64,000 nucleotides of DNA, taken from Actinomycetota bacterium (GTDB taxonomy: Bacteria > Actinomycetota > Actinomycetes > S36-B12). The DNA is taken from NCBI GenBank assembly GCA_016717115.1, contig JADKGE010000001.1, forward strand, positions 508,584 through 572,583, read 5' to 3'. Positions 10,720-24,832 of this stretch are shown in pieces. Below the pieces are notes generated by a model. That model worked only from the letters and a program-made list of their open reading frames with translations, was not told the origin of the DNA and searched no databases. Positions within the stretch are counted from its first letter, which is position 1; each line of letters starts with the position of its first letter. The position numbers were made by a program, and so were the translations under genes.

Positions 10720-10822
10720 GGCAAACCATGACGTATGACACCCCTCCGGTCAAGCGCTTTCGAGAAGTGTCCGCAAACTGATGGCAAGGTGTGACCAGCC
10801 AGCGACTCGACGAGGAGGGACA

Positions 10823-11773: not shown

Positions 11774-12941
11774 GTGCCTACGCCGAGTCGATCACCGTCG
11801 AGGATCTCGAGGACGACCCCTACCCGGTCTACGCCAGGCTGCGCGCCGAGGCGCCGGTCGCATGGGTGCCGGCCGTCGGCCTGTGGCTGGTCACGCGGGC
11901 CCCCGACGTCGAGTTCGTGACGACACACCCGAACTGTTCTCCGCTCACGTCGACAGCTCGCCGCTGGACCGATCCTTCGGCGGGCCGACGATCCTGACGG
12001 TCGACGGCGCGGTACATCTCGACCTCCGGCGCAGCCTGGATGCGAAGTACAAGCCGCGGGTCGTCGCGTCGTACATCGACGACCTCGTCACTCCGATCGC
12101 CCAGGCCGCACTCGACGCCGTGCTCGCCCGATCCGACCGGCGGGCCGAGCTGATGTCGTGCTACTTCGAGCCCATCTCTGTGCTGAGCCTCGGCGCCGTG
12201 CTGGGCCTGGGCCACCTTTCGGCGGAGACGCTGCAGGACTGGTTCCACGGGCTCGCCATGGGGGCCATCAACTTCGAGAACGACCCGGCGAAGCAGCGGG
12301 TCAACGACGAGACGGCCGCGCGTATCGATGCCGAGCTCCGGCCGCTCATGGAGCACCTGCAGCGACAGCCCGACGGCTCAACCATCGCCTCGATGCTGAC
12401 GGTCGAGCGAATGCGGACCATCGAGGAGGTGCTCCCGTCGCTCAAACTGATCATCCTCGGCGGCATGCAGGAGCCCGGCCACGGCGCCGGATCCTGTCTC
12501 TACGGTCTCCTCTCGGATCCCGACCAACTCGAGCTCGTCCGCGCCGAGCCCGAGAGGTGGGACGAAGCCGTGCATGAGGGGCTGCGCTGGGTTGCTCCCA
12601 TCGGCACGCAGACCCGCCAGGCCCGCGAGGACGTCGCGATGGCGGGGACGGTCATACCGGCCGGCGCACCTGTGGGTGCCGTGGTCGCCAGCGCCTGCCG
12701 GGACGATTCGGAGTTCGACGACCCGGATCGGTTCGACATCCGACGCGAACGGCGACCCAACGCGGCCTTTGGATTCGGCCCGCACTTCTGCGCCGGCCAC
12801 GCCTTCGCCCGTGGCCAGGAGCGCATCGCACTGCGCACGCTCGTCGACGCCGTGCCCGACCTCGCTCTCGACACCCGCCATGAGGTTGCCTTCCGAGGCT
12901 GGGAGTTCCGCGCGCCGACTGAGCTCAACGTCGCTTGGTGA
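11770..12941 (+). pseudogene. cytochrome P450, frameshifted near the 5' end
   Basis: The N-terminus lies in ORF 11770..11997 (DPYPVYARLRAEAPVAWVPAVGLWLVTRAPDVEFVTTHP). The remainder lies in ORF 11862..12941 (ELFSAHVDSS...FGFGPHFCAGHAFARG). The frames join only if one base is restored around 11928..11933 (cacccgaactg). Confidence 0.8.
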
Positions 12942-12953: not shown

Positions 12954-13799
12954 TCAGCCGAAGACGATGGTGCGCTTTCCGTCGAGCACGATCCGGTCCT
13001 CGGCGAACAGCCTGACCGCACGTGCCAGCACCAGGCGCTCAACGTCACGACCGATCTCAGCCAGGTCGTCGGGCGTCGCCGCGTGGTCAACGCGCTGCAC
13101 GCCCTGCTCGATGATCGGCCCCTCGTCGAGGGCCGCGGTCACGAAGTGCGCCGTCGCACCGATGAGCTTGACGCCGCGGGCGTGGGCCTGGTGGTACGGC
13201 CGTGCCCCCTTGAACCCCGGCAGGAAGGAGTGATGGATGTTGATGATGCGTCCCGGCAACCGCGAGCAGATCTCGTCGGACAGCACCTGCATGTACCGGG
13301 CCAGGACGATGACATCGATGGCGTGCTCCTCGACGAGCGCCAGCAGCTCGAGCTCCTGCGCGGACCTGGTCTCCGGCGTGACCGGCAGGACGACGAAGGG
13401 GATGCCGTGACGCTCCGCGACCCCTCGGCAGTCCTCGTGGTTCGACACCACCAGGGGGATCTCCACGGGAAGCTCCCCGTTGCCGTAGCGGTAGAGCAGG
13501 TCGACGAGGCAGTGGTCGTACTTCGAGACCATTACCAGCACCCGTCGACGCGACTGCTCGAGGCGCACGTCCACCGTCGGCACGAAGCGCGCGGTCCTCT
13601 CGGCGATCACCGTGCGCACCGAGGCGGCGTCCTCGCCCGGCGCCTCGAAGCGGGTCCGCATGGCGAACAGGCCCGAGTCCTGATCCGTGAACTGCGCCTG
13701 CTCGAGCACGTTCGCCGACACGTCGAGCAGCGCTCCCGCCACGGCGTGGATGATGCCGGGACGGTCCTGGCAGGTGAGCGTGAGGATGAAGTGGGGCAC
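12954..13799 (-). CDS. purU: formyltetrahydrofolate deformylase
   Basis: ORF 12954..13799. An N-terminal ACT domain (MPHFILTLTCQDRPGIIHAVAG) is followed by a formyltransferase domain (IINIHHSFLPGFKGARPYHQA). Confidence 0.92.
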   Translation of the reverse strand: MPHFILTLTCQDRPGIIHAVAGALLDVSANVLEQAQFTDQDSGLFAMRTRFEAPGEDAASVRTVIAERTARFVPTVDVRLEQSRRRVLVMVSKYDHCLVDLLYRYGNGELPVEIPLVVSNHEDCRGVAERHGIPFVVLPVTPETRSAQELELLALVEEHAIDVIVLARYMQVLSDEICSRLPGRIINIHHSFLPGFKGARPYHQAHARGVKLIGATAHFVTAALDEGPIIEQGVQRVDHAATPDDLAEIGRDVERLVLARAVRLFAEDRIVLDGKRTIVFG

Positions 13800-13841: not shown

Positions 13842-15194
13842 CTAGTAGTCCTCGAGGTACTCGTCGAGCTCCCACTGCGTCACGTCCCGGGTGGTCGGGT
13901 CCTCGACCTCGGCCTCGTACCGCGCCACCTCGTCACGCTTCAACGTGGTGAACACGTCGATGAAGTCGCCAGTGAGCAGGTGTCGAAGCGCCGGATTCGC
14001 CTGAAGCGCGTCGAGGGCCTCCTTGAGCGACATCGGCAGCACGGGGCGGGCCTCGTCCTCGTACGCCCAGCCCTCGGCCGCCGGCGGCGGCGTCAGCTCC
14101 CGCCGGATGCCGTCGAGGGCGGCCGCCAGAACCACGGCGATCACCACGTACGGGTTGGCCGAGCCGTCACCGATGCGCAGCTCCAGGCGCGTGCCCTGTC
14201 CGCGCTCCGGTGGGATGCGGATCATCGTGGAGCGGTTGTCGTATCCCCAGTTGGACCGGTAGGGCGCGAGAGTGTCGGGTCCGAGTCGCTTGTAGGCGTT
14301 GACGGTCGGGTTGGTGAATGCGGCGATGGCGTCGGCGTGCTCGATGACCCCGGCGATCATCTGGCGGGCCATTCCCGACAGGGCGCCGTCGCCGTCGTGC
14401 ATCAGATTGACGCCCTCCGCGTCCGTGACGGAGAAGTGCAGGTGGAAGCCGCTGCCGCCCTCGTCGCTCCACGGCTTGCCGAGGAACGTGCCGAGGATCC
14501 CACGCATCGCGGTGACGTCCTTGATGGCCGTCTTGAACAGGAACGTCCGGTCGGCGGCATCCATCGCCTCGCTGTGCCACAGGTTGATCTCGTACTGCGA
14601 CGGGCAGAACTCGTGGTTGCCCGCGAAGGCGCCGATGTTGAGCTGGTCAAGCATGCGCAGCAGGTGGAGGTAGTGGCCGTCGGGGTCGACATGCGCCCCC
14701 GTCGTGTAGACGCGACCGGTCTTGTTGAGGATGCGCTCCCAGCCGTCCTTCCCCCGTTGGGCGAAGTAGAACTCCAGCTCGGGGCCGCAGACCGGGACGA
14801 GGCCCAGCTTGTCGTACTCGTCGAGCACGCTGCGCAGGACGGCGCGGGGCGCGACGTCGCTGCGGGATCCGTCCGGGTTGTCGATGTCGGCGATGGCGTA
14901 GGCGACGCCCGGCAGCCACGGGATGGGCCGGATGGTGTCGGTGTCCAGGCTCGCCACCATGTCGGGCAGGCCGTCGCCGAAGCTGCCCGTTCCGGCGTCG
15001 AGCACGCCCCCGCGCGTGGTGGTGACCCAGGTGCCCTGGCAGAAGGCGGGTCCGTGGGCGGCGGAGCGCTCCAACTGCGAGACCAGCAGGTCCTTCGAGC
15101 GGGTGATGCCCAGGAGGTCCGTGAAGATCAGTCGGACGACATCGATGCCCTGGGTCTCCAGGACTCGGCGGGTCTCGGCCAGGTCGTGCAGCAT
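13842..15194 (-). CDS. glutamine synthetase-fold ligase (second candidate gamma-glutamyl-amine synthetase)
   Basis: ORF 13842..15278 trimmed to the ATG at 15194 (MLHDLAETRRVL...). GS catalytic motifs are present (PELEFYF, HEFCPSQYEIN, GSGFHLHFS, NAYKRL, NPY). Confidence 0.88.
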   Translation of the reverse strand: MLHDLAETRRVLETQGIDVVRLIFTDLLGITRSKDLLVSQLERSAAHGPAFCQGTWVTTTRGGVLDAGTGSFGDGLPDMVASLDTDTIRPIPWLPGVAYAIADIDNPDGSRSDVAPRAVLRSVLDEYDKLGLVPVCGPELEFYFAQRGKDGWERILNKTGRVYTTGAHVDPDGHYLHLLRMLDQLNIGAFAGNHEFCPSQYEINLWHSEAMDAADRTFLFKTAIKDVTAMRGILGTFLGKPWSDEGGSGFHLHFSVTDAEGVNLMHDGDGALSGMARQMIAGVIEHADAIAAFTNPTVNAYKRLGPDTLAPYRSNWGYDNRSTMIRIPPERGQGTRLELRIGDGSANPYVVIAVVLAAALDGIRRELTPPPAAEGWAYEDEARPVLPMSLKEALDALQANPALRHLLTGDFIDVFTTLKRDEVARYEAEVEDPTTRDVTQWELDEYLEDY

Positions 15195-15229
15195 GGGTCT
15201 CCCTCGCAAGGCGGACGGGATCCAGCGAA

Positions 15230-15249
15230 ATCGTTCGGACCCCAACGAT
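15230..15249. promoter_or_regulatory. candidate operator ATCGTTCGGACCCCAACGAT (site A)
   Basis: 20-nt imperfect palindrome in the 125-nt divergent region between the GS-like gene (start 15194) and the GATase gene (start 15320). Confidence 0.55.
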
Positions 15250-15319
15250 CTGGTGGATACTAGGCGCTCCCCGGCCATCGGGGAAGCACTTTGGACATTA
15301 GACCCCGATGAGGTGGCTC

Positions 15320-16027
15320 ATGCGCGCGTTGTTCCTCCAGCACGATCACCTCAGTCCCCCGGGGCCTGTGGCCGAGCGCTTCGCGCATCGCGGATACGCG
15401 ATCGCCGAGGCGAGCGTCGTGCCGCCGGAGGACTTCCACGCACCCAACAAGCCGTTCGACTTCCCCGATCCCCGCGAGTTCGATGCCCTCGTCGTCATGG
15501 GTGCCCCCTGGGGTGCCTGGGATGACGAAACGATCGGCAACTGGCTGCTGCCGGAGATCGAGTGGCTCCGCGAGGCCGACGACCTCGGTGTCCCCGTCTT
15601 CGGCATCTGCTTCGGCGGCCAGCTGCTGGCGCGAGCGCACGGCGGCTCCGTGGCACGGGCGCCCCGGCCGGAGATCGGCTGGACCTCGATCTGGACCCAG
15701 GAACCCGGCCTGGTCGGCTCCGGCCCGTGGTTCCAGTGGCACTACGACCGCTGGCAGGTCCCCCCGGGCGCCCGCGAGATCGCCCGCAACTCGATGGCCT
15801 CCCAGGCCTTCGTGCTGCGCCGCAACCTCGCCGTGCAGTTCCATCCCGAGCTGACGGCTGCCGGGCTGCAGGGCTGGCTGGAGAACGGCGGCCGCGCCGG
15901 CGTCGTCGCCGACGGCCAGGATCCCGCCATCCTCTACCAGCACACGCTGGCCGAGGGCGAGGAAGCGGCTCGCCGGGCGCACGACCTGGTGGACGCGTTC
16001 CTCGACCGAGTGGCCCATGCGCCCTAG
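15320..16027 (+). CDS. class-I glutamine amidotransferase-fold protein (second copy)
   Basis: ORF 15308..16027 trimmed to the ATG at 15320 after GAGGTGG. The nucleophile motif GICFGGQLLARAHGG is present. It is a paralog of 4643..5341. Confidence 0.85.
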   Translation: MRALFLQHDHLSPPGPVAERFAHRGYAIAEASVVPPEDFHAPNKPFDFPDPREFDALVVMGAPWGAWDDETIGNWLLPEIEWLREADDLGVPVFGICFGGQLLARAHGGSVARAPRPEIGWTSIWTQEPGLVGSGPWFQWHYDRWQVPPGAREIARNSMASQAFVLRRNLAVQFHPELTAAGLQGWLENGGRAGVVADGQDPAILYQHTLAEGEEAARRAHDLVDAFLDRVAHAP

Positions 16028-16085
16028 CCGCGGCGCGCCGAGGTCGCCGTTCCCCTTGACCGCACGCGCACTGGCTCCCTAGCCT

Positions 16086-16105
16086 TCCGTTCGGACCCGA
16101 ACGAT
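16086..16105. promoter_or_regulatory. candidate operator TCCGTTCGGACCCGAACGAT (site B)
   Basis: Best palindrome of the family (CGTTCGG-AC-CCGAACG). It ends 30 nt upstream of the P450 ATG at 16135. Confidence 0.55.
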
Positions 16106-16134
16106 CCACCAGCCCCTACCTGTCAGGAGGCTCG

Positions 16135-17394
16135 ATGAAGCCCACCCCCGTACCCCTGTCGGACGTGAACCTTGCCAACCTCGACTACTTCGTCGCTGAC
16201 GAGGCTTGGGGGATGTTCGACACGCTGCGGGCCGAGGACCCCCTGCACTGGCAGGACGAGCCGGACAGCGATGGCCACGGTTTCTGGTCCGTGACCCGCT
16301 ACGACGACATCGAGATGGTCAACAAGGACGGCGAGACGTTCACCTCGACCAAGTTCGTCAACCTCGAGGAGCCCCCCGCCGAGTTCCAGGACCTCCGCCG
16401 CTCGATCCTCGAGAGCGACGGCTCCCGGCATCAGGCACTGCGCAAGCTGCTCGCCCGCGACTTCAGCGTTGCCCAGCTGCGCCGCTACGAGGACTTCCTC
16501 CGCGGCCTGGCCCGCATGTCCATCGAGTCCGCCCTCGAGCAGGAGGACATCGACTTCGTCGACGCGATCGCCGCGGACTTCCCGATCAATGTTCTGGCTC
16601 GGCTGCTCGACGTGCCCGACGACATGATCCCTCAGCTCATCACCTGGGGTAACACAATCGTCGGCTTCTCGGACCCCGAGCTGTCGGATGTGCTCGTCGA
16701 CAGCGACGAGGCCCAGCAGTACAAGCACCTGCCCTTCCGGTCACCCGTCTCCCTCGAGATCTTCGAGTACGGCCGGCAGCTGGCGAAGGAGCGCCGGGGC
16801 GGCGACGGCGAGGATCTGGTCAGCAAGCTGGTCAACCGCATCCCGGAGGACGGCGTCCCGCTCACGGACACGGACTTCGACAACTACTTCCTGCTCCTCG
16901 TCGTGGCCGGCAACGAGACGACCCGGCAGGCCATGACGCTGTCCATGAAGGGGCTCATGGACCACCCTGACCAGATGCAGTACTTCCTCGACAACATGGA
17001 CAAGTCGCAGATCATGGTCGAGGAACTCATCCGCTACGCCTCGCCGGTGTACCACTTCCGCCGCACCGCGACCAAGGACATCGAGCTGCACGGCAAGACC
17101 ATCAAGGAGGGCGACAAGGTCGTCATGTGGTTCGCCTCGGGCAACCGCGACGACGCCAAGTTCACCGACCCGTACGGCCTCGACCTCACGCGGTTCCCGA
17201 ACGACCACATGACCTTCGGCAAGGGCCCCCACAGTTGCCTCGGCGCGAACCTCGCGCGGATGGAGATCCGAATCCTCTTCGAGGAGTTGCTTCCCCGCCT
17301 GGCCTCGATCGAGCAGACGGGCGAGATCGAGCGGGTGCGCAGCAACTTCGTCAACGGAGTGAAGCGCTTCCCGGTCCGGGTCAAGGCGAAGTAG
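16135..17394 (+). CDS. cytochrome P450
   Basis: ORF 16135..17394 with RBS AGGAGG. Motifs present: I-helix VVAGNETTRQA and heme loop FGKGPHSCLGANLA. Confidence 0.93.
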   Translation: MKPTPVPLSDVNLANLDYFVADEAWGMFDTLRAEDPLHWQDEPDSDGHGFWSVTRYDDIEMVNKDGETFTSTKFVNLEEPPAEFQDLRRSILESDGSRHQALRKLLARDFSVAQLRRYEDFLRGLARMSIESALEQEDIDFVDAIAADFPINVLARLLDVPDDMIPQLITWGNTIVGFSDPELSDVLVDSDEAQQYKHLPFRSPVSLEIFEYGRQLAKERRGGDGEDLVSKLVNRIPEDGVPLTDTDFDNYFLLLVVAGNETTRQAMTLSMKGLMDHPDQMQYFLDNMDKSQIMVEELIRYASPVYHFRRTATKDIELHGKTIKEGDKVVMWFASGNRDDAKFTDPYGLDLTRFPNDHMTFGKGPHSCLGANLARMEIRILFEELLPRLASIEQTGEIERVRSNFVNGVKRFPVRVKAK

Positions 17395-17397
17395 TCG

Positions 17398-18375
17398 ATG
17401 ACGGAGACCGAGACCCGGCTCAGGGAGTTCGAGAGCGACCTCGTTGTCGAGTCGTACGAGGTCGTCGCGGAGGACGTGGTCGCCGTTACGCTCGTCCACC
17501 CGCAGGGCGAGGCGCTGCCCGCGTGGACGCCGGGCGCGCACATCGACCTGATCCTCACTCCTGAGATCACCCGTCAATACTCGCTGTGCGGCTCGCCGGC
17601 CGATGCCCACCGGTTCACGGTCGGCATCCTGAACGCACCGAACAGCCGGGGCGGCTCACGGCATGTCCACGAGGCCGTCAGCACGGGCAGCGTGATCAGG
17701 ATCCGAGGGCCGCGGAACCACTTCCCCCTGGTGGCGTCACCTCGGTACGTGTTCATCGCCGGCGGCATAGGCGTCACGCCCATGCTGCCGATGATCGCGG
17801 AGGCCGAGGCGGCACGTGCCGAATGGACGCTCCTGTACGGCGGACGCAGCGAGGCGTCGATGGCGTTCATCGACCAGTTGCGCGCCTACGGCGACCGCGT
17901 GACCCTCCTGCCCGGCAACGACGTGGCCCTCATGTCCGCCGCGCTGGACGACCGGATCGGCACCCCCCGGCCGGACACCCTCGTCTACACCTGCGGGCCG
18001 GAGGGACTCCTCGGTGCCGTGGAGGCACGGTGCGCCAGCTGGCCGACCGGCTCGCTGCACCTCGAGCGCTTCGCGGCCAAGGCCACCGAAGGCGCGGTGG
18101 ACACCGAGTTCGAGGTCGAGCTGGCCCGCACGGGGATCACCATCACCGTCCCTGCCGATAGGTCCATCTTCGACGCGGTCCAGGACCACGGCATCAGCGT
18201 GCTCGGCTCCTGTCACGAGGGAGTCTGCGGGACGTGCGAGACCGTGATCCTCGGCGTTGACGGCGAGGTCGACCATCGCGACTCCGTCCTGAACGACGAG
18301 GAGAAGGCAAGTAACGAGTCCATGATGATCTGCGTGTCGCGATGCAGGTCGGGCCGACTCACCCTCGACCTTTGA
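17398..18375 (+). CDS. PDR/VanB-type oxidoreductase (flavin reductase domain + C-terminal plant-type 2Fe-2S ferredoxin)
   Basis: ORF 17398..18375. Motifs present: flavin motif RQYSL, NAD domain GGIGVTPM, and C-terminal CHEGVCGTCET...C cluster motif. Confidence 0.9.
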   Translation: MTETETRLREFESDLVVESYEVVAEDVVAVTLVHPQGEALPAWTPGAHIDLILTPEITRQYSLCGSPADAHRFTVGILNAPNSRGGSRHVHEAVSTGSVIRIRGPRNHFPLVASPRYVFIAGGIGVTPMLPMIAEAEAARAEWTLLYGGRSEASMAFIDQLRAYGDRVTLLPGNDVALMSAALDDRIGTPRPDTLVYTCGPEGLLGAVEARCASWPTGSLHLERFAAKATEGAVDTEFEVELARTGITITVPADRSIFDAVQDHGISVLGSCHEGVCGTCETVILGVDGEVDHRDSVLNDEEKASNESMMICVSRCRSGRLTLDL

Positions 18376-18391
18376 GCCAGGAGAGCTGACG

Positions 18392-19408
18392 ATGAGTGCT
18401 GCGATTCCCGTTCCCCGCGACTGCTGGTACGCCCCGGCGGCCTCGAGCGAGGTGGGCCGCGAACTGGTCCCCGTCCGCGCTGCCGGCCTACCGGTTGTCC
18501 TCTACCGGACCGAGTCCGGTGCCGTCGTCGCGCTCGAGGACCGGTGCGCGCACCGGGCCTACCCCCTCAGCGCCGGCGAGCTCATTGGGGACACCGTCCG
18601 CTGTGGCCTGTGCGGCTTCGTCTACGGCCCTGACGGGCAGTGCATCAGCGTGCCCACGCAGCCGCACGTCCCGTACGGCGCGCGGGTGGCGTCCTACCCC
18701 GTGCAGGAGGCCGACGGCCTGGTCTGGGTGTGGCTGGGCGAGCCCGGCCGTGCGGGACTTCACCGCATTCCCGATCTGCCGTGGCTCGATGACGACGGCT
18801 GGTCCACGGTCTCCGGCGAGGAGGACGTGCTCGCCTCGTTCCTCCTCCTGCACGAGAACTTCGCCGACGTCACGCAGGTGCCCTTCGTCGCGCCCGACAT
18901 CGCGCCGTCGGTTCTCGGCAGCACCCCTCCGCCCCTCGAGGTGGTCGTGAGCGAGACGTCGGTGTCGCTGCATCGCGACTTCCCGCCCGCACCCCTGCCG
19001 GAGTGGCAGGCCGAGATCGTCGGCTGCCCACCCGACGCGCCTTACCGCACCGAGCAGTCAGGGTTCTTCCCCTCGCCGGCCGTGTGGGTCGACCACTGGG
19101 ACGCCCAGGCTGCGGACGGCACCTGGATCCGACTCCGCTTCACGCACCTCGTCACGCCGATCGACGAGTCCAGCAGTCGGCTGCTGTGGGCGGTGAGCCG
19201 CGACTTCGCCCTGGGCAACCGCGCGGTCGACCAGTACCTGGGCGGGATCTTCACCGACTACTACGAGCGCGTGATCGACGCGATGGAGATCGCGCAGGAG
19301 GTGCTCGAGATCGACGGCCCGGGGCCAGAGGTCAACGTCAACGCCGACGCGGTCGGACTCAAGGTGCGCGAGATCGTGGACGCACTGCTCACTGCCGAAG
19401 GGGCCTGA
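18392..19408 (+). CDS. VanA-like Rieske-domain protein with non-canonical metal ligands
   Basis: ORF 18392..19408 with RBS AGGAGAG. It aligns by eye with vanillate demethylase VanA (WY..., EDRCAHR...). The second Rieske box reads CGLCG instead of CxYHG. The catalytic motif DxxHxxxxH reads DVTQVPFVA. Confidence 0.8.
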   Translation: MSAAIPVPRDCWYAPAASSEVGRELVPVRAAGLPVVLYRTESGAVVALEDRCAHRAYPLSAGELIGDTVRCGLCGFVYGPDGQCISVPTQPHVPYGARVASYPVQEADGLVWVWLGEPGRAGLHRIPDLPWLDDDGWSTVSGEEDVLASFLLLHENFADVTQVPFVAPDIAPSVLGSTPPPLEVVVSETSVSLHRDFPPAPLPEWQAEIVGCPPDAPYRTEQSGFFPSPAVWVDHWDAQAADGTWIRLRFTHLVTPIDESSSRLLWAVSRDFALGNRAVDQYLGGIFTDYYERVIDAMEIAQEVLEIDGPGPEVNVNADAVGLKVREIVDALLTAEGA

Positions 19409-19447
19409 CCACAGCAGCCCGGCAGTGCCAGCAGGCCATCGTCTACT

Positions 19448-19978
19448 GTGCACCGAGGATTCGAGGGGGATGATGTGGCAGGACCGCACACACTGGCGGA
19501 GACCGAGCGGGCTGCCGAGTCGCGCATCGCCGGACTCGAGCTCGACATCGAGTCTCTCCACGTCGTCTCCAACCTGTTCCGCGCCGCCAACGCCGTGCGC
19601 AACCACATGGAGCGCGAGGTGCTCACCCCGGCGGACCTCACCTGGACGGCCTTCGTCGTCCTGTGGGTCACCTGGATCTGGGGCAGCACCGAGACCCGGG
19701 TCATCGCCGAGGAGACCGGGGTGTCGAAGGCGACGCTCAGCGGAGTCCTGACGACGCTCGAGAAGCGCGGGCTGGTCCGGCGCACCAAGAGCGAGGCCGA
19801 CGGCCGGCTCGTCCTCGTCGAGCTCACCCCACGCGGACGACGGCTGATCACGCGCCTCTTCCCCCGCATCAACGCGGAGGAGACCCACGCCACGCGGCTG
19901 CTTCCGGGCGGATCCAAGGAGGAATCGGCCGAGCTCCTGCGTCTGATGGTGCTCGCTGTCGAGAGTCCCTCCTCCTAA
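19448..19978 (+). CDS. MarR-family transcriptional regulator
   Basis: ORF 19448..19978 (GTG, start uncertain). The winged-HTH core TRVIAEETGVSKATLSGVLTTLEKRGLVRRTKSEADGRLVLVELTPRG is typical MarR. Confidence 0.88.
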   Translation: MHRGFEGDDVAGPHTLAETERAAESRIAGLELDIESLHVVSNLFRAANAVRNHMEREVLTPADLTWTAFVVLWVTWIWGSTETRVIAEETGVSKATLSGVLTTLEKRGLVRRTKSEADGRLVLVELTPRGRRLITRLFPRINAEETHATRLLPGGSKEESAELLRLMVLAVESPSS

Positions 19979-20667
19979 CGGCCGGCCTCCGCCACGAGCT
20001 TTCGGAAGGGCAGGAGCTGATCCGGATCGACGTCGTAGGTGTCCTCGGGGTGCCACTGGACGCCGGCGGCCCAGCCGTTCGACGCGATCGACACGGCCTC
20101 GACCACGCCGTCCTCCGCGCGACCAAGCACCGTGATGCCGTCGGCCACGCGCTCGACCTCCTGGTGGTGGTAGCAGGAGCAGGTGATCGGCAGGTTGCCG
20201 ACGCCCAGGTGGTCGTCCGGGTCGTCGATCGCCACCCGATGCACGTGATGACGGTGGTTGACGTCCATGTCGATCACGAGGGTGCCCCCCAGGAGCGCGT
20301 TCACGACATGCAGGCCGCGGCAGACAGCCAGAGTCGGGATCCCCTGGTCGAGTGCGAACTGCGCGAGCGTGAAGTCGGTCTCGTCCTGCACCTCGTCGAC
20401 GTCGTACAGCGCGACGTGGGTCGGGTCGCCGCCGTAACGGCGCGGATTGACGTCACCGCCTCCGGGCAGCAGGACGCCGTCGACGCCGCGGAGCCGGTGC
20501 TTCCAGTCCACGGCGTCTGGCCCCGCGGCGGGCAGCAGCACGTGCGGGTCGCCGCCCGCGGCCCAGACGGCCTCGAGGAGCTTGCGCGCGGCGACGACTC
20601 CTCGGTAGCGCAGGGCGCTGGCCGACTCGGTGTATCGACCGGGGATGGCGATGATGGGACGGGACAC
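19975..20667 (-). CDS. gamma-glutamyl-gamma-aminobutyrate hydrolase family protein (peptidase C26, PuuD-like)
   Basis: ORF 19975..20811 trimmed to the GTG at 20667 after AAGGAGG. C26 motifs are present (LPGGGDVNP, LAVCRGLHVVN, GVQWHPE). Confidence 0.88.
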   Translation of the reverse strand: MSRPIIAIPGRYTESASALRYRGVVAARKLLEAVWAAGGDPHVLLPAAGPDAVDWKHRLRGVDGVLLPGGGDVNPRRYGGDPTHVALYDVDEVQDETDFTLAQFALDQGIPTLAVCRGLHVVNALLGGTLVIDMDVNHRHHVHRVAIDDPDDHLGVGNLPITCSCYHHQEVERVADGITVLGRAEDGVVEAVSIASNGWAAGVQWHPEDTYDVDPDQLLPFRKLVAEAGR

Positions 20668-20714
20668 GGTTCCTCCTTGCCGAGAAGGATGCACCATTCC
20701 AGAACAATTCGCTT

Positions 20715-20734
20715 TCCGTTTGGTTCCTAACGAC
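20715..20734. promoter_or_regulatory. candidate operator TCCGTTTGGTTCCTAACGAC (site C, most divergent)
   Basis: Lies in the 106-nt divergent region between the C26 hydrolase start (20667) and the ALDH start (20774). It keeps the frame CGTTnGG-N2-CCnAACG. Confidence 0.45.
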
Positions 20735-20773
20735 CTAGGATGTGCCGACGAACCGCCGCCCCGTAGGAGCCCT

Positions 20774-22237
20774 ATGAGCACGATCAGCATCGCCGGAGTC
20801 GACGTCGACACCCGGCACTGGATCGGTGGTCAGCGCGTCGCCTCTGCCGAGACGTTCGAGGACGTCTCGCCGGTCGACGGTCACCTTCTCGGCCAGGTCG
20901 CTCGCGGGGGGAGGCCCGAGGCGGATGCAGCCGTGGCCGCAGCCCAGGCCGCGTTCCCGGCATGGTCGAGGATGAGCCCGGAGGAGCGGGGCGAGATCCT
21001 CTTCCGCCTGGCCGACTCCATCGAGGCGCATGTCGAGGAGCTGTCCCAGATCGAGACCCTCGACAACGGCTCCCTACTGCGGTCGCACCGCCGCGGGGTC
21101 ATGCCCCGGGTCGCCATGAACATCCGGTTCTTCGCCGACTACGCGATCAACCGCTTGAGCCATCCGGAGTTCGAGACGCGGGGTCACACCAATCACGTGT
21201 CGTGGGACCCCTCCGGCGTCGCGGTGATCATCACCCCCTGGAATGCGCCACTGATGCTGGCGACGTGGCGCATCGGCCCGGCCCTCGCGTCGGGTGACAC
21301 GGTCGTCCTCAAGCCACCCGAGTGGGCTCCGCTGACCGCCTCGTACTTCGCCGATCTCGCGCACGAGGCCGGCCTGCCGCCGGGCGTGTTCAACGTCGTG
21401 CAGGGCTTCGGCACGGAGGCCGGGGCGCCGCTGACGGCCAACCCGGACGTTTCTCGCATCTGCTTCACCGGATCGGTGCCCACTGCGAAGGTGATCGCAC
21501 GCGCGGCCGCCGACAATCTGGTGCCGTGCTCGTTCGAGCTCGGCGGCAAGAGCCCGACGGTGATCCTCGACGATGCCGACCTCGATCTCGCGGTCGACCT
21601 CGCCGTGGAGCAGTACGACAACGCGGGCCAGGTGTGCCTGGCGGGAACGCGGCTGCTCGTGCAGCGCGGCATCGCCGAGGCCTTCACCGAGCGCTTCCGT
21701 GAGCGGGCGACGCAGATCCGCCAGGGCGACCCGCGCGACGAGGACACCCAGATCGGCCCCAACATCCACCTGAAGCACATCGAGCGGGTGCAGGGCTTCG
21801 TCGACCGAGCGAGGAGCGACGGCGCGACCATCGCCTACGGCGGCGACGTCAACACCGACCTCGGGCCGCACTACTTCCGGCCGACGTTGGTCGTCGACGC
21901 ACCTGCGGGCAGCGAGATCCTCACCCAGGAGGTCTTCGGGCCCGTCCTCACGATGCAGGTGTTCGACACCGACGACGAGGGCCTCGAACTCGCCAACGGG
22001 ACGGAGTTCGGCCTCGCCGCCTGCGTCGTGTCCGGCAGCCGCACGAGGGCCGAGGCCTTCACCAAGCACCTCGTTGCCGGCACCATCTGGGTCAACTGCT
22101 TCTTCGTCCGCGACCTGTCTGCCCCCTTCGGCGGATCCAAGAAGTCCGGCATCGGCCGCGAGGGCGGCGTCTGGTCGTTCGACTTCTACGCAGACGTGAA
22201 GAACACCGTCTACGCCCCCAACGGTTGGAAGGACTAG
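20774..22237 (+). CDS. aldehyde dehydrogenase (ring-fission semialdehyde dehydrogenase by context, HpaE-like)
   Basis: ORF 20630..22237 trimmed to the ATG at 20774 (MSTISIAGVDVDTRHWIGG). ALDH motifs ELGGKSP, FTGS and catalytic Cys AGQVCLAGTRL are present. It lies directly upstream of the extradiol dioxygenase. Confidence 0.88.
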   Translation: MSTISIAGVDVDTRHWIGGQRVASAETFEDVSPVDGHLLGQVARGGRPEADAAVAAAQAAFPAWSRMSPEERGEILFRLADSIEAHVEELSQIETLDNGSLLRSHRRGVMPRVAMNIRFFADYAINRLSHPEFETRGHTNHVSWDPSGVAVIITPWNAPLMLATWRIGPALASGDTVVLKPPEWAPLTASYFADLAHEAGLPPGVFNVVQGFGTEAGAPLTANPDVSRICFTGSVPTAKVIARAAADNLVPCSFELGGKSPTVILDDADLDLAVDLAVEQYDNAGQVCLAGTRLLVQRGIAEAFTERFRERATQIRQGDPRDEDTQIGPNIHLKHIERVQGFVDRARSDGATIAYGGDVNTDLGPHYFRPTLVVDAPAGSEILTQEVFGPVLTMQVFDTDDEGLELANGTEFGLAACVVSGSRTRAEAFTKHLVAGTIWVNCFFVRDLSAPFGGSKKSGIGREGGVWSFDFYADVKNTVYAPNGWKD

Positions 22238-22239
22238 TC

Positions 22240-23145
22240 ATGGGTGAGTTCGTCGCTGCCGGCCTGCTGTCGCATGTGCCGACGATCATGCTTCCGGAGG
22301 CCACGCGCCGCGAGATCAACGAAGGCAAGGAGCTCTCGCTCGTGACGTCCCTGCGACAGCTGCGCAAGGACGTGTTCGAGACGCTGGACTACGACACCGT
22401 GATCGTCCTCGACTCGCACTGGTTCACCACCGTGGAGTTCATCATCACGTCTCACGCGCGCCGAGCGGGCCTGTTCACTGCCGAGGAACTGCCCCGCGGC
22501 ATGTGCCGGATCCCCTACGAGTGGCGGGGCGACCCCGAGTTCGCCCACTCCATCGCGTCCCACGCCGACGAGGTCGGCACGTGGATCACCCCCGTCGACG
22601 ACGAGTACCTGCCGCTGTACTACCCCTCGATCAACCTGTGGTCCTACCTCGGCAAAGGCCTCGACAAGCAGTGGCTGTCGATGAGCGTGTGCCAGACGGC
22701 CGACACCGAGGACTACCTGCGGGTCGGCCGGGCCATCGGCAAGGCGATCGAGGACGTCGACCGCAAGGTCATCATCCTTGCGACAGGATCCCTGTCGCAC
22801 ACCTTCTACCCGCTGCGCGAGATCCGCCTCAACCCAGCGGTCGAGCGGTCGGACCCCAAGTACATCGTCAGCGACAAGGCAAGGGAGATGGACTACGAGC
22901 GCCTCGCCTGGTTTGCCGAGGGCCGGCACGACAAGGTGCTCGACACCATGGACGAGTTCCTCACCGTCCGCCCCGAGGGCAAGTTCGCGCACTACCTGAT
23001 GATGGCCGCCGCGCTCGGCGAGTCCGAGTTCGCTGCGCCGGGCCGTCAGATCTCCGACTACGAGAACTCGGTCGGTACGAGCCAGGTGCATGTCTGGTTC
23101 GACCGTCCCGAGACCGGATGGACGCGCAAGGGAGCCGCCGCATGA
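22240..23145 (+). CDS. hpaD: class III (LigB-type) extradiol dioxygenase resembling 3,4-dihydroxyphenylacetate 2,3-dioxygenase
   Basis: ORF 22225..23145 trimmed to the ATG at 22240. Blocks align by eye with E. coli HpaD/HpcB: LSHVPTIMLPE, DTVIVLDSHWF, GDPEFAHSIA, LATGSLSHTF, GTSQVHVWF. Confidence 0.75.
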   Translation: MGEFVAAGLLSHVPTIMLPEATRREINEGKELSLVTSLRQLRKDVFETLDYDTVIVLDSHWFTTVEFIITSHARRAGLFTAEELPRGMCRIPYEWRGDPEFAHSIASHADEVGTWITPVDDEYLPLYYPSINLWSYLGKGLDKQWLSMSVCQTADTEDYLRVGRAIGKAIEDVDRKVIILATGSLSHTFYPLREIRLNPAVERSDPKYIVSDKAREMDYERLAWFAEGRHDKVLDTMDEFLTVRPEGKFAHYLMMAAALGESEFAAPGRQISDYENSVGTSQVHVWFDRPETGWTRKGAAA

Positions 23146-24020
23146 CCGAGTACCGCCGCATCCTCCTCGAGGGGGCTCCGGTCCAGGCCGTCCGCCACGG
23201 CGACGAGCTCGTCGCCGCTGACGGGCGCACGATAGGCGTCGACGACGCGATCCACCTGCCGCCCGTGGAGCCCACGAAGATCATCGCGGTGCACCTCAAC
23301 TACGACTCCCGCACGCAGGAGTTCATGACGAAGCTGCCGCCCGCGCCCACCTACTTCCACAAGCCGATCACGGCGCTGAACTCCCACAAGGGCGCGGTCG
23401 TGCGGCCGGAGGGATGCAAGTGGCTGAACTACGAGGGCGAGATCGTCATCGTCATCGGACGCACGTGCCGCAACGTCTCGCCCGAGGAGGCCGGTGACTA
23501 CATCGCCGGCTACACCGTCGGCAACGACTACGGCCTGCACGACTTCCGCGACACCGATGCCGGCTCGATGCTGCGGGTGAAGGGCTCCGACACCCTTGCC
23601 CCCATCGGCCCCGGGCTGGTCACGGGCTGGGACTTCCACAACAAGGGCATCCAGACCCGCGTCAACGGAGAGGTCAAGCAGGACTCGACGACGGCGGAGA
23701 TGGAGTGGGACATGCACTACCTCGTCGCCGACATCGCCCGCACCATCACGCTGGTGCCCGGCGACATCCTCTTCTCGGGCACCCCCGCGTTCTCGCGCAC
23801 GGTCTACCCCGGCGACGTGGTCGAGGTGGAGGTCGAGGGCCTCGGCACCCTGAGCAACACCATCGTGCAGGGGCCGGTGCCCATCCGCGACGACTGCGGT
23901 GCGCAGCCGACCGAGAGCGAGGAGGTCGTCTCGACAGCCATGGGCGGCGACTGGGAGTTCCGTGGCATCCGCACCCCCTCGAAGGACCTGTACCCCTCCA
24001 CGGTGGAGGAGAAGGAGTAG
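23142..24020 (+). CDS. fumarylacetoacetate hydrolase (FAH) family protein (HpaG-like decarboxylase/isomerase, single domain)
   Basis: In the frame of ORF 22503..24020, starting at ATG 23142 (ATGA overlap with hpaD). FAH motifs are present: YEGEIVIVIGR, GYTVGNDY, PGDILFSGTP. Confidence 0.85.
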   Translation: MTEYRRILLEGAPVQAVRHGDELVAADGRTIGVDDAIHLPPVEPTKIIAVHLNYDSRTQEFMTKLPPAPTYFHKPITALNSHKGAVVRPEGCKWLNYEGEIVIVIGRTCRNVSPEEAGDYIAGYTVGNDYGLHDFRDTDAGSMLRVKGSDTLAPIGPGLVTGWDFHNKGIQTRVNGEVKQDSTTAEMEWDMHYLVADIARTITLVPGDILFSGTPAFSRTVYPGDVVEVEVEGLGTLSNTIVQGPVPIRDDCGAQPTESEEVVSTAMGGDWEFRGIRTPSKDLYPSTVEEKE

Positions 24021-24022
24021 GC

Positions 24023-24832
24023 ATGGCGAGCTCGAGCGGATTCCTCCCCCCGTACACCGATTCGGGTCGCACGGCCCTTATCCCGGAGATGCCCTGGCAC
24101 TACTCCGGCACGCTCCTCACCGTCGAGTACCGCACGGACCCGGCGAAGGTCCGCGCGATCCTTCCGCCGGAGCTCGGCCTCGCCGACGAGGACCCGGGCG
24201 CAGTGGCCTTCATCTGGGCCGACTGGCAGTCCTGCTCCACTGGTGGTGCCGAACTGCTCGACCCCTCGCGTTCGCAGTACCTCGAGGCGTTCGCCGTTGT
24301 GCGCGCCACGTACCAGGGAGTGACCTACAGCCGCTGCGTGCTCATCTGGGTCACCACCGACTTCGCGATCGGGCGCGGCTGGTTCCAGGGCTACCCGAAG
24401 AAGCTGGGCAGCGCCTACGTCACGCGCCCGTACAACCGTGGCATCGCGGCTCCCCGCATCGCGGAGGGCGGCACCTTCGGCGCCTCGCTGGCGGCGTACG
24501 ACCACCGGCTCGCCACCGCGAAGGTGACACTGCGCGAACCGGCCGAGTCCAACGGCTTCGTGAACGCCCACAAGATGGTCCACCACCGCTACATGCCATC
24601 CCTGGTTCCCGGTGCGGGCATGTCGCTGGAGCAGATCGTCACCATGGGTGGCGTCGACCTCGACCTCGGCCAGCCGTGGAAGGGCGATGCGGAGCTGTCC
24701 TTGTTCGACTCGCCCTGGGACGAGCCGGCCAGCCTGCTGCCCGTCGACGAGATCATCGCCGGGTACTACTGCGAGGTCGGCACCACGTTCGCGGGCGGCA
24801 CGCTGCTGACGGACGGCTCCTCCCCCGTCTGA
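24023..24832 (+). CDS. acetoacetate decarboxylase (ADC) family protein
   Basis: In the frame of ORF 23705..24832, starting at ATG 24023. The sequence is ADC-family-like (PPYTDSGRTALIPEMPWHYSGTLLTVEYRTDPAKVRAILPPEL). Confidence 0.7.
   Translation: MASSSGFLPPYTDSGRTALIPEMPWHYSGTLLTVEYRTDPAKVRAILPPELGLADEDPGAVAFIWADWQSCSTGGAELLDPSRSQYLEAFAVVRATYQGVTYSRCVLIWVTTDFAIGRGWFQGYPKKLGSAYVTRPYNRGIAAPRIAEGGTFGASLAAYDHRLATAKVTLREPAESNGFVNAHKMVHHRYMPSLVPGAGMSLEQIVTMGGVDLDLGQPWKGDAELSLFDSPWDEPASLLPVDEIIAGYYCEVGTTFAGGTLLTDGSSPV

What the first reader, a model, noticed from the sequence alone, without database searches (positions are those of the whole stretch)
18392..19408. VanA-like Rieske protein lacking the catalytic iron histidines and carrying CxH...CxxC instead of CxH...CxxH
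The protein aligns by eye along its length with vanillate O-demethylase oxygenase VanA: WY.. N-terminus, EDRCAHR against EDFCPHR, and LHENFADVT against IDNLMDLTH. Three of the canonical metal ligands are substituted. First, the second Rieske box reads C-G-L-C-G (Cys codon TGC at 18611..18613) where the family has C-G-Y-H-G. This gives a 3-Cys/1-His arrangement. Second, the mononuclear-iron motif D-x2-H-x4-H reads D-V-T-Q-V-P-F-V-A (Gln codon 18875..18877, Ala codon 18890..18892), so both His ligands are absent. The gene keeps a good RBS and strong coding bias, and it sits as the third gene after a P450 and a PDR/VanB-type reductase. Inference: it is unlikely to be a conventional oxygenase. It could be a redox-tuned electron-transfer or scaffold partner for the P450, a pseudo-enzyme, or a representative of a divergent subfamily with different chemistry.
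Basis: partly seen in the sequence, partly recalled or inferred. Interest (0 to 1): 0.7.

Follow-up and report, generated by a model that had tools for sequence, protein, structure and literature searches.

The report
Rieske oxygenase relative without catalytic iron
This gene encodes a well-conserved relative of vanillate and dicamba demethylase oxygenases that has lost all three ligands of its catalytic iron and holds its iron-sulfur site with three cysteines and one histidine, so it is most likely an electron-transfer or docking partner of its neighbouring reductase rather than an oxygenase.

Summary
ORF 18392..19408 (338 aa, MBK9738398.1) has the Rieske plus VanA_C fold (AF2 pLDDT 89; TM 0.86 to dicamba monooxygenase DdmC). 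Pairwise, multiple and profile alignments agree on C52-A-H54 and C71-G-L-C74 in place of CxH...CxxH. All three iron ligands are replaced: Q162, A167 and V294.

It is not decay. dN/dS is 0.08-0.16, like the neighbouring P450 and reductase. All ~190 full-length clade members examined but one carry Cys-His-Cys-Cys, while the former iron positions drift (Q/K; A/V/D/T/M; V/L/S/T).

The gene always sits beside a PDR-type reductase as a two-gene cassette (14 of 14 loci). The cassette is an optional, swappable part of an actinobacterial gamma-glutamyl-amine, P450 and extradiol-cleavage cluster, and it mostly alternates with an FdR plus ferredoxin pair. The window has both. A sister clade in the same context has no Fe-S ligands but keeps His162 and Asp167.

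Best reading (confidence about 0.4): it is a non-oxygenase second component of the PDR electron-supply module for the cluster's P450(s), probably carrying a low-potential 3Cys/1His [2Fe-2S] centre. Rivals are an inert scaffold and a new redox enzyme. No description was found in the searchable literature.

The parts
18392..19408 (+). VanA/DdmC-fold Rieske-oxygenase homologue, 338 aa, lacking the catalytic iron ligands (MBK9738398.1)
   Evidence: ORF and RBS. Pfam Rieske plus VanA_C. DdmC is the best PDB match by sequence and by fold, TM 0.86. dN/dS 0.075-0.16. Identity to MBK9738398.1.
18545..18553 (+). Rieske box I, Cys52-Ala-His54 (canonical CxH)
   Evidence: Alignments. Invariant in 120 of 120 sequences with a residue at these positions and 74 of 74.
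18602..18613 (+). Rieske box II, Cys71-Gly-Leu-Cys74 (CxxC in place of CxxH), giving a 3Cys/1His ligand set
   Evidence: Alignments. Cys74 in 119 of 120 and 74 of 74. The equivalent engineered His-to-Cys change in a Rieske ferredoxin assembles a low-potential [2Fe-2S] cluster (PMC2946596).
18866..18892 (+). Former iron-binding motif D159-V-T-Q162-V-P-F-V-A167. The bridging Asp is kept; both His ligands are replaced.
   Evidence: D159, T161 and Q162 are invariant in all 121 aligned sequences and A167 is Ala in 120 of 121. Positions 162 and 167 vary (K/Q; V/A/D/T/M) in the deeper branch.
19271..19273 (+). Val294 at the column of the third iron ligand (Asp294 of DdmC)
   Evidence: Profile alignment and multiple alignment. 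Pairwise phmmer gave Tyr291 instead. The whole 'YYxRV' subfamily lacks the Asp.
17398..18375 (+). PDR/VanB-type reductase (flavin-binding RxYS motif, NAD-binding domain, plant-type [2Fe-2S] domain). Obligate cassette partner.
   Evidence: Pfam Fer2, NAD_binding_1, FAD_binding_6. Fer2 cysteines and RxYS are intact in all orthologues. Always adjacent to the VanA-like gene.
16135..17394 (+). Cytochrome P450 (heme Cys and I-helix AGNETT present), first gene of the P450-PDR-VanA-like run
   Evidence: Pfam p450. Invariant FGxGxHxCxG and AGNETT in orthologues. Orthologues occur with or without the cassette.
24861..25052 (+). Small single-cluster ferredoxin (63 aa, GTG start, GAAGGAGG RBS). A candidate class I P450 partner.
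   Evidence: ORF found, translation, Pfam Fer4_15 E 1.1e-9. Orthologue lies next to FdR in clusters without the cassette.
25059..26252 (+). Ferredoxin-NAD(+) reductase (HcaD/AndAa-like)
   Evidence: NCBIfam hits at 213 and 206 bits, below cutoffs. Present in cassette-free clusters.
13842..15278 (-). Glutamine-synthetase-like ligase (probable gamma-glutamyl-amine synthetase)
   Evidence: Pfam Gln-synt_C. Gamma-glutamylputrescine synthetase model at 239 bits, below cutoff. Syntenic in all clusters.
15308..16027 (+). Class I glutamine amidotransferase-like protein (probable gamma-glutamyl amide hydrolase)
   Evidence: NCBIfam; synteny.
19448..19978 (+). MarR-family regulator, 40 nt downstream of the VanA-like gene
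   Evidence: Pfam MarR; synteny.
19975..20811 (-). Peptidase C26/GATase-like hydrolase (gamma-glutamyl-GABA hydrolase-like)
   Evidence: NCBIfam PRK11366 at 64.7 bits, below cutoff; synteny.
20774..24832 (+). Lower pathway: HpaE-like aldehyde dehydrogenase, LigB/HpaD_Fe-like extradiol dioxygenase, HpaG-like FAH-family enzyme, ADC/MppR-like enzyme
   Evidence: NCBIfam HpaE 515 bits, HpaD_Fe 137, HpaG-C 199, MppR 179, all below the equivalog cutoffs. Pfam LigB and ADC. Synteny.

Best explanation
The protein is a descendant of a two-component (VanA/VanB-type) Rieske oxygenase alpha-subunit that no longer activates oxygen. Its mononuclear iron site has been dismantled (His to Gln162, His to Ala167, Asp to Val294). 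Its Rieske loops now offer Cys52, His54, Cys71 and Cys74.

In this clade it most likely still binds a [2Fe-2S] cluster, now 3Cys/1His and therefore lower in potential than a normal Rieske centre. It would act as the second component of the PDR-type reductase module encoded immediately upstream. In that role it accepts electrons from the reductase's own [2Fe-2S] domain, passes them on to the cluster's P450(s), and/or docks the reductase to them. This would make it the counterpart of the ferredoxin in the alternative FdR plus ferredoxin module.

Shown here: the ligand replacements; the fold; strong purifying selection; invariance of the 3Cys/1His set while the ex-iron positions drift; obligate adjacency to PDR; exchange of PDR plus VanA-like as a unit; and the largely alternative distribution of this cassette and FdR/Fdx in otherwise identical clusters.

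Inferred, not shown: that a cluster (rather than zinc) is bound; that its potential is low; that PDR reduces it; and that a P450 is the acceptor.
For: 1. Ligand positions were established by three alignments and a confident model.
2. Selection: dN/dS is 0.075-0.16, against 0.11-0.16 for the P450 and 0.09-0.16 for PDR.
3. CHCC is found in 119 of 120 sequences and 74 of 74. In that deeper branch position 162 is Q or K, position 167 is A/V/D/T/M and position 294 is V/L/S/T. Constraint therefore sits on the Fe-S ligands, not on the old active site.
4. The His-to-Cys change is at the box-II histidine. That is the one substitution shown experimentally to permit assembly of a low-potential 1His/3Cys [2Fe-2S] cluster in a Rieske scaffold; the box-I change fails (PMC2946596). 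His ligation raises Rieske potentials relative to all-Cys clusters (PMC12445004).
5. PDR and the VanA-like gene are adjacent in every locus where the contig allows, and co-occur in 14 of 14 large loci. In L020 and L023 the P450 is 90% identical to the window's, but PDR and VanA-like are only 64-66%, so the pair moves as a cassette.
6. Of 29 large loci, 9-11 have FdR/Fdx only, 8 have PDR/VanA-like only, and 5-6 have both. The remaining genes are the same. The cassette therefore behaves like an alternative redox module, not a pathway step.
7. PDR cofactor motifs are intact everywhere.
8. The window region holds three P450 genes but only these two candidate electron-supply modules.
Against: 1. 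The sister clade sits in the same gene context but has D/C-x-H...S/A-x-x-S/T in the Rieske loops. It cannot bind a normal Fe-S cluster, yet it is equally conserved and still paired with an intact PDR. A relay cannot be the shared function of the subfamily.
2. The window already has a complete FdR plus Fdx chain.
3. PDR-type reductase domains are known, from my own recollection of P450RhF/CYP116B, to reduce P450 heme directly, so no mediator is strictly required.
4. The C-terminal (former catalytic) domain is about as conserved as the Rieske domain. A mere ferredoxin would not need that.
5. No 338-aa RO-derived ferredoxin has been described in the literature I could search.
6. A Cys3His site could bind structural zinc instead of a cluster.
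Confidence: 0.4

Rival explanations
1. Redox-inert scaffold or pseudoenzyme. The trimeric RO shell is kept only to stabilise or dock the PDR reductase (and perhaps the P450), or to hold the gamma-glutamylated substrate. The Cys3His site would be purely structural, binding either a cluster or zinc.
For: Syntenic relatives in clade 2 have no Fe-S ligand set, yet the former cluster loops (residues 48-78) and helix 148-170 remain the most conserved segments in both clades. That fits a conserved subunit or partner interface rather than a conserved cofactor. PDR is intact when paired with Rieske-less partners, so PDR-to-P450 transfer without a mediator must be possible. The Rieske loop geometry resembles rubredoxin and zinc-ribbon knuckles (PMC2946596).
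Against: The Rieske-ligand positions vary freely in clade 2 (D/C; S/A/C; S/T). In clade 1 they are invariant in about 193 of 194 sequences. That argues for a cofactor under selection in this clade. A purely structural role does not explain why His was replaced by Cys rather than kept.
Confidence: 0.25
2. PDR plus the VanA-like protein is a two-component enzyme of its own, with new redox chemistry that does not activate O2. The Fe-S centre would deliver electrons to a substrate bound in the old pocket, for example reduction of a quinone, quinone-imine or N-oxygenated intermediate of an aromatic amine.
For: The gene co-occurs obligately with a reductase. The C-terminal domain is conserved, with invariant polar residues (H154, E155, D159, D234, D237, R247, R249, R270, D271, Y290, Y291, R293). 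The bridging Asp159 is kept. The cassette is accessory to the core pathway, as an extra detoxifying or substrate-widening step would be.
Against: The positions nearest the old metal site drift within the clade. Clade 2 lacks the electron-entry cluster. No candidate substrate or reaction can be derived from the data. Several of the conserved residues (E155, N156, D159, T161, R270) are family-wide features rather than new ones.
Confidence: 0.2
3. It is a conventional Rieske monooxygenase or demethylase, and the apparent ligand loss is an alignment offset or is compensated by nearby residues.
For: Overall fold, domain order, bridging Asp and PDR partner are all those of a VanA-type oxygenase. Basal subfamily members (P0124/L011, L027) still have CHCH and His162.
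Against: Pairwise, multiple and profile alignments all place Q162 and A167 on the His ligands, and V294 (or Y291) on the Asp. There is no His within the motif. The replacing residues vary to K, V, L and T in close relatives, which is incompatible with metal ligation.
Confidence: 0.02
4. It is a decaying relic (pseudogene in the making) of the oxygenase whose reductase was taken over by the P450.
For: Metal-ligand states differ among lineages: CHCH|HH, CHCH|HD, CHCC|QA, CHCC|KV, CHST|HD, DHSS|HD, CHAT|HD. This looks like relaxed constraint on the oxygenase chemistry.
Against: The reading frame is intact in hundreds of cluster representatives. dN/dS is 0.075-0.16, equal to or lower than the adjacent P450. 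117 of 338 positions are nearly invariant across 62-100% identity. The gene is never lost when PDR is present.
Confidence: 0.02

Closest known systems
Dicamba monooxygenase DdmC and vanillate O-demethylase oxygenase VanA (class IA, alpha3 Rieske oxygenases with PDR/VanB-type reductases)
   Same: Same two-domain fold: Rieske plus VanA_C, TM 0.86 to 3gb4, 24% identity. Same length, same bridging Asp, same CxH box I, and the same kind of adjacent FMN/[2Fe-2S] reductase gene.
   Different: Box II is CxxC, not CxxH. All three ligands of the catalytic iron are replaced (Q162, A167, V294). It is embedded in a P450-containing cluster. It cannot carry out the family's O2-activating chemistry in the known way.
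Engineered H64C variant of the Sulfolobus solfataricus Rieske-type ferredoxin ARF (Kounosu et al. 2004, as summarised in PMC2946596)
   Same: The same substitution (box-II His to Cys) in a Rieske scaffold. [quoted passage not shown]
   Different: ARF H64C is a laboratory mutant of a small ferredoxin. Here the state is natural, invariant across a large clade, and sits in a 338-aa oxygenase-type subunit. Cluster binding here is inferred, not measured.
Rieske-type ferredoxins of multicomponent oxygenases (for example CarAc, BphF; weak NCBIfam hits to AndAb and HcaC-type models)
   Same: A Rieske-fold domain proposed to shuttle electrons from a reductase to a terminal oxygenase.
   Different: Those are single-domain proteins of about 105-115 aa with 2His/2Cys ligation. 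This protein keeps the whole catalytic domain, probably trimerises, and has 1His/3Cys.
P450 systems that use Rieske-oxygenase-type reductases: P450RhF/CYP116B (PDR-like domain fused to the P450) and GcoAB (from my own knowledge; not tested here)
   Same: A P450 paired with an FMN- or FAD-containing [2Fe-2S] reductase of the kind normally serving Rieske oxygenases. The P450-PDR gene order here mimics the CYP116B fusion.
   Different: Those systems contain no oxygenase-alpha-like third protein. Here one is always co-inherited with the reductase.
NdmC/NdmD of the caffeine N-demethylase (from my own knowledge; not tested here)
   Same: A precedent within the VanA-like branch for splitting or losing one of the two metallocentres of a Rieske oxygenase subunit.
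   Different: NdmC lacks the Rieske domain but keeps the catalytic iron. Here the catalytic iron is lost and a modified Rieske site is kept. The sister clade does the opposite at the ligand level while keeping both domains.

Membership tests
Rieske non-heme iron oxygenase alpha-subunit, VanA/DdmC type | N-terminal Rieske domain plus C-terminal VanA_C (helix-grip) catalytic domain | tested here: met
   Pfam PF00355 (56 bits) and PF19112 (80 bits), both above cutoffs. Foldseek TM 0.86 to DdmC.
Rieske non-heme iron oxygenase alpha-subunit, VanA/DdmC type | Rieske ligand motif CxH...CxxH (2Cys/2His) | tested here: not met
   C52-A-H54...C71-G-L-C74. The second His is Cys in three alignments.
Rieske non-heme iron oxygenase alpha-subunit, VanA/DdmC type | 2-His-1-carboxylate facial triad for mononuclear Fe(II) (D-x2-H-x4-H plus a distal Asp) | tested here: not met
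   Q162, A167 and V294 occupy the three ligand columns.
Rieske non-heme iron oxygenase alpha-subunit, VanA/DdmC type | Conserved Asp bridging the Rieske His and the iron His across the subunit interface | tested here: met
   D159 is invariant. Both residues it normally bridges are replaced (C74, Q162).
Rieske non-heme iron oxygenase alpha-subunit, VanA/DdmC type | Cognate PDR/VanB-type reductase gene adjacent | tested here: met
   PDR at 17398..18375, 16 nt upstream. Adjacent in every related locus.
Rieske non-heme iron oxygenase alpha-subunit, VanA/DdmC type | NAD(P)H- and O2-dependent oxygenation or demethylation of a substrate | not testable with these tools
   Needs enzymology.
Rieske-type ferredoxin (electron carrier) | Small single-domain protein (about 105-115 aa) with a 2His/2Cys [2Fe-2S] cluster | tested here: not met
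   338 aa with two domains and 1His/3Cys. Only weak sub-cutoff hits to AndAb (23 bits) and PRK09965 (17 bits).
Rieske-type ferredoxin (electron carrier) | Carries electrons from a reductase to a terminal oxygenase | not testable with these tools
   Supported only indirectly, by the PDR cassette and its alternation with FdR/Fdx.
Natural 3Cys/1His [2Fe-2S] proteins (NEET/CISD type) | CDGSH/NEET fold | tested here: not met
   The fold is Rieske plus VanA_C. Only the ligand composition is shared.
Class I P450 redox chain (FdR plus small ferredoxin) | FAD-containing ferredoxin reductase and a 3Fe/4Fe single-cluster ferredoxin next to the P450 cluster | tested here: met
   This holds for the window as a whole, not for the finding itself. 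Fdx at 24861..25052 (Fer4_15) and FdR at 25059..26252. It shows that the P450 has another possible electron source.

The most novel reading that the evidence does not exclude
A natural 3Cys/1His [2Fe-2S] centre in a Rieske fold has turned a trimeric Rieske-oxygenase alpha-subunit into a large 'ferredoxin'. Together with its PDR-type reductase it would form a previously unrecognised type of P450 electron-transfer chain. The sister clade would have gone the opposite way, keeping a His/Asp site and losing the cluster.
Probability: 0.3. Interest if true: 0.85.

Novelty: new variant of a known kind. Interest (0 to 1): 0.66.

Why it matters
Rieske oxygenases are defined by two metallocentres. Here a large family (hundreds of 90%-identity clusters in soil and freshwater Actinomycetota) under strong selection has dismantled one or the other centre, yet remains locked to its reductase.

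If the 3Cys/1His site binds a cluster, it would be the natural counterpart of a ligand set so far made only by mutagenesis in this fold. That would give a direct handle on how His-to-Cys ligation tunes Rieske potentials and proton coupling.

If the cassette feeds a P450, it adds a new redox-partner architecture. It would also illustrate how a P450 can capture the reductase of a Rieske oxygenase.

There is a practical consequence too. These proteins are annotated as 'vanillate O-demethylase oxygenase' or 'aromatic ring-hydroxylating dioxygenase subunit alpha', and that annotation is almost certainly wrong.

Tried and rejected
1. Literature. Eight full-text searches looked for a natural CxH/CxxC Rieske protein, for catalytically dead RO homologues, for P450 plus PDR plus RO-like systems, and for the gamma-glutamyl/P450/extradiol pathway. 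Only the engineered ARF H64C precedent and general RO reviews were useful. Absence from this library does not prove the protein is undescribed.

2. NCBIfam gave no equivalog. The best hit was 4-beta-methylsterol monooxygenase SdmA at 73 bits against a cutoff of 600.

3. The structure tool returns no coordinates. I could not inspect the pocket, measure cluster-to-surface distances or model complexes.

4. The promoter and terminator scan of 15000..20200 gave nothing above shuffled expectation.

5. I looked for a second VanA-like paralogue in the window that could form a mixed trimer with this one (Rieske-only plus iron-only subunits). There is none. Clusters carry only one such gene each. The rest of the genome could not be checked.

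6. The phmmer pairwise placement of DdmC Asp294 on Tyr291 was superseded by the profile and multiple alignments, which place it on Val294.

7. I considered that the protein supplies a missing pathway step. I rejected this as the main reading because cassette-free clusters have the same remaining gene set.
Full report
**1. The observation**

ORF 18392..19408 (+) starts with ATG and has a GGAGAG Shine-Dalgarno 7-12 nt upstream. It encodes 338 aa. It is 100% identical to MBK9738398.1, annotated 'Rieske 2Fe-2S domain-containing protein' from an Actinomycetota MAG. Pfam finds a Rieske domain (residues 12-99, 56 bits) and a VanA_C domain (148-334, 80 bits), both above cutoff.

The closest solved structure by sequence is dicamba monooxygenase DdmC (3gb4, E 7.7e-25). 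Next come a guaiacol O-demethylating Rieske oxygenase (7qwt), SxtT/GxtA, NdmA/B, KshA and CarAa. An AlphaFold2 model is confident (pLDDT 89.3, pTM 0.87; the Rieske loops score 94-98). It superposes on DdmC with TM 0.86.

**2. Ligand positions**

Three independent alignments agree. They are phmmer against DdmC, MAFFT L-INS-i with 150 representatives of the whole family, and an HMM built from canonical members plus DdmC.

- Box I is C52-A-H54, which is canonical.
- Box II is C71-G-L-C74-G, against CPYHG or CgYHG in canonical members.
- The iron motif N-x2-D-x2-H-x4-H reads N156-F-A-D159-V-T-Q162-V-P-F-V-A167.
- The third iron ligand, Asp294 of DdmC, falls on Val294 in the profile and multiple alignments. 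The pairwise run put it on Tyr291. Neither is a carboxylate.

All three ligands of the catalytic iron are therefore absent. One of the two Rieske histidines is a cysteine. The bridging Asp159 is retained, although both residues it normally connects have been replaced. According to PMC12445004 this Asp links the ligand histidines of the two centres.

**3. Not noise, not decay**

Among the 120 best cluster representatives (62-100% identity, out of 919 hits):
- C52, H54 and C71 are invariant and C74 is Cys in 119.
- D159, T161 and Q162 are invariant in all 121 aligned sequences (the query plus these 120), and A167 is Ala in 120 of 121.
- 117 of 338 positions are nearly invariant.

Pairwise dN/dS against six syntenic relatives is 0.075-0.16. 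The P450 gives 0.11-0.16 and the reductase 0.09-0.16.

**4. Where the state sits in the family**

An exhaustive search of 50%-identity representatives found 9225 hits. The CHCC state is confined to sequences about 50% or more identical to the query. Everything at 40% identity or below is canonical, with CHCH, H/H and Asp.

A neighbour-joining tree (no support values) recovers a monophyletic subfamily that lacks the third-ligand Asp and carries the motif Y-Y-x-R-V.
- Basal members keep the canonical Rieske set: P0124/L011 is CHCH with His162/His167, and L027 is CHCH with His162/Asp167.
- Clade 1 contains the query and is CHCC.
- Clade 2 has Rieske positions reading DHSS, CHST, CHSS, CHAT or CHAS, so no cluster is possible. 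It nevertheless keeps D159, H162 and D167 in about 113 of 120 members.

A third homologue search, seeded with a deep clade-1 member (L025), sharpens the picture. All 74 full-length sequences have CHCC. Position 162 is Q or K, position 167 is V/A/D/T/M, and position 294 is L/V/S/T.

The two clades therefore show complementary constraint. Clade 1 is selected on the 3Cys/1His set and drifts at the ex-iron site. Clade 2 is selected on His162/Asp167 and drifts at the ex-cluster site. In both clades the former cluster loops (48-78) and helix 148-170 are the most conserved segments. In Rieske oxygenase trimers these regions face each other across the subunit interface.

**5. Genomic setting**

In the window the order is as follows.

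| Coordinates | Strand | Product |
|---|---|---|
| 13842..15278 | - | Glutamine-synthetase-like ligase |
| 15308..16027 | + | GATase-like hydrolase |
| 16135..17394 | + | P450 |
| 17398..18375 | + | PDR-type reductase |
| 18392..19408 | + | VanA-like protein (the finding) |
| 19448..19978 | + | MarR regulator |
| 19975..20811 | - | C26/GATase-like hydrolase |
| 20774..24832 | + | HpaE-like ALDH, LigB/HpaD_Fe-like extradiol dioxygenase, HpaG-like FAH enzyme, ADC/MppR-like enzyme |
| 24861..25052 | + | Fer4_15 ferredoxin (63 aa) |
| 25059..26252 | + | Ferredoxin reductase |
| 26917..28461 | + | Pyridoxal_deC decarboxylase |

Six MAGs at 81-92% identity share this order. More distant genomes carry the same gene set rearranged, with PDR and VanA-like always adjacent. 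These are L007 (53%), L008 (47%), L011, L014 and L015 (Nocardioides sp.).

The gene content suggests catabolism of an aromatic, probably arylalkyl, amine. The likely steps are gamma-glutamylation, P450 oxygenation, extradiol ring cleavage, a homoprotocatechuate-type lower pathway and gamma-glutamyl hydrolysis. This is my inference. All equivalog scores are below cutoff and no paper was found.

**6. The cassette**

I scanned metagenome contigs with an alignment of the cluster's P450 and obtained 80 loci. Among 29 loci of at least 10 kb carrying at least five core genes:
- PDR and VanA-like co-occur in 14 of 14, and neither is ever seen alone.
- 9-11 loci have FdR plus Fdx and no cassette. These show a compact, highly conserved layout: FdR-Fdx-FAH-LigB-ALDH, GATase, MarR, P450, GATase, GS, ADC.
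- 8 loci have the cassette and no FdR/Fdx. These include all clade 2 loci and the CHCC-type Nocardioides locus.
- 5-6 loci, the window's close kin, have both.

In L020 and L023 the P450, LigB and FAH are 89-95% identical to the window's. PDR and VanA-like are only 64-66% identical, so the pair has been exchanged as a unit. PDR's flavin motif and the four ferredoxin-domain cysteines are intact in every version, including those paired with Rieske-less partners.

Two conclusions follow. First, the protein is not a required step of the pathway and is not required by the P450 as such. Second, its function is tied to the reductase, and the cassette behaves as an alternative to FdR/Fdx.

**7. Mechanism**

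The box-II His-to-Cys change is the one substitution shown to allow a Rieske scaffold to assemble a [2Fe-2S] cluster with 1His/3Cys and a low potential. The box-I change does not (PMC2946596).

I combine this with the invariance of CHCC in clade 1, the loss of the iron site, the obligate PDR partner and the alternation with FdR/Fdx. On that basis the reading I favour (confidence 0.4) is this: the protein is the second component of a PDR-based electron-supply module for the cluster's P450(s). It would carry a low-potential cluster that PDR reduces, and it would relay electrons and/or dock the partners. The region holds three P450 genes (7769..9007, 11862..12941, 16135..17394) and only these two candidate redox modules.

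The main counter-evidence:
- Clade 2 has the same context, an intact PDR and no cluster. A relay cannot be the subfamily's common function, and PDR must be able to work without a mediator there.
- The window also has FdR/Fdx.
- The ex-catalytic domain is as conserved as the Rieske domain.
- Cys3His could bind zinc.

The rivals:
- An inert scaffold or substrate-holding pseudoenzyme (0.25).
- A new two-component redox enzyme that uses the old pocket without activating O2 (0.2).
- A conventional oxygenase (0.02).
- A decaying relic (0.02).

The last two are contradicted by the alignments and by the selection data.

**8. Comparison with the known, and novelty**

By fold, domain order, bridging Asp and partner reductase, this is a VanA/DdmC-type Rieske oxygenase subunit. 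It fails both defining metal-ligand tests, so it should not be filed as an oxygenase. It is not a Rieske ferredoxin by size or ligation, and it is not a NEET protein by fold.

I found no description of a natural CxH...CxxC Rieske-fold protein, of a catalytically dead VanA homologue, or of this gene cluster in the searchable literature. The library is incomplete.

I rate it a new variant of a known kind, with interest about 0.66. It is a large, selected family, mis-annotated as oxygenases. Its complementary loss of the two metallocentres and its lock to a reductase would surprise specialists, and the question is directly testable by simple spectroscopy and reconstitution.

Noticed in passing
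window 24861..25052 (+) and 25059..26252 (+): A 63-aa single-cluster ferredoxin (Fer4_15, GTG start, GAAGGAGG RBS) lies directly upstream of a ferredoxin reductase. It is too short to appear in the ORF listing at the 80-aa cutoff. Together they form a complete class I P450 redox chain in the same cluster as the PDR/VanA-like cassette.
   Followed up: yes
window 26917..28461 (+); also L015 11024..12445 (-): A group II PLP-dependent decarboxylase (Pyridoxal_deC, 214 bits) flanks the cluster here and sits next to the GS-like gene in the Nocardioides locus. This hints that the amine substrate is made from an amino acid, possibly aromatic.
   Followed up: partly
window 816..9007: A second gamma-glutamyl/P450 module lies upstream: ALDH (816..2339 -), CoA-transferase III (3498..4646 -), GATase (4643..5341 -), GS-like (5342..6688 -), ADH_N protein (6766..7596 +) and a P450 (7769..9007 +, 41% identical to the main P450). 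The region thus holds three P450 genes within about 10 kb.
   Followed up: partly
window 11862..12941 (+): A P450-like ORF of 359 aa keeps the heme cysteine motif (FGFGPHFCAG) but has an atypical I-helix (GGMQEPG, without the acid-Thr pair) and a short N-terminus. The best NCBIfam hit is 'P450-derived glycosyltransferase activator' at 103 bits (cutoff 343). It is conserved only in the window's close relatives (L001-L003, L005).
   Followed up: no
window 12954..13799 (-): A formyltetrahydrofolate deformylase (PurU-like: ACT plus Formyl_trans_N) lies next to the GS-like gene. It is conserved there in L001, L002 and L004-L006, and is also present in L068. It may point to a one-carbon (demethylation) step in the pathway.
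   Followed up: no
L007 8001..8984, L008 5782..6768, and proteins P0270-P0389: The sister clade of VanA-like proteins includes Mycolicibacterium sp. WP_293237059.1 and Actinoplanes bogorensis WP_215791583.1. It has no usable Rieske ligands (DHSS, CHST, CHAT and similar) but conserves His162 and Asp167. It is a puzzle in its own right: a possible mononuclear site with no electron-entry cluster, still paired with an intact reductase.
   Followed up: partly
L020 4931..6956 and L023 1126..3148: In these two metagenome contigs the P450 is 90% identical to the window's (LigB 89% and FAH 95% in L020), but the PDR and VanA-like genes are only 64-66% identical. The two-gene cassette has been replaced as a unit.
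   Followed up: yes
window 9047..10738 (+), 28293..30032 (+), 2311..3474 (-): These long ORFs (563, 579 and 387 aa) have no Pfam match at E <= 1e-3 to 1e-5. In this high-GC sequence they may or may not be genes.
   Followed up: no
window 20630..20811: The ALDH ORF listed from GTG 20630 overlaps the 5' end of the divergent C26/GATase gene (19975..20811, -) by about 180 nt. Homology to HpaE starts near 20774, so the true ALDH start is probably downstream of the listed one.
   Followed up: no
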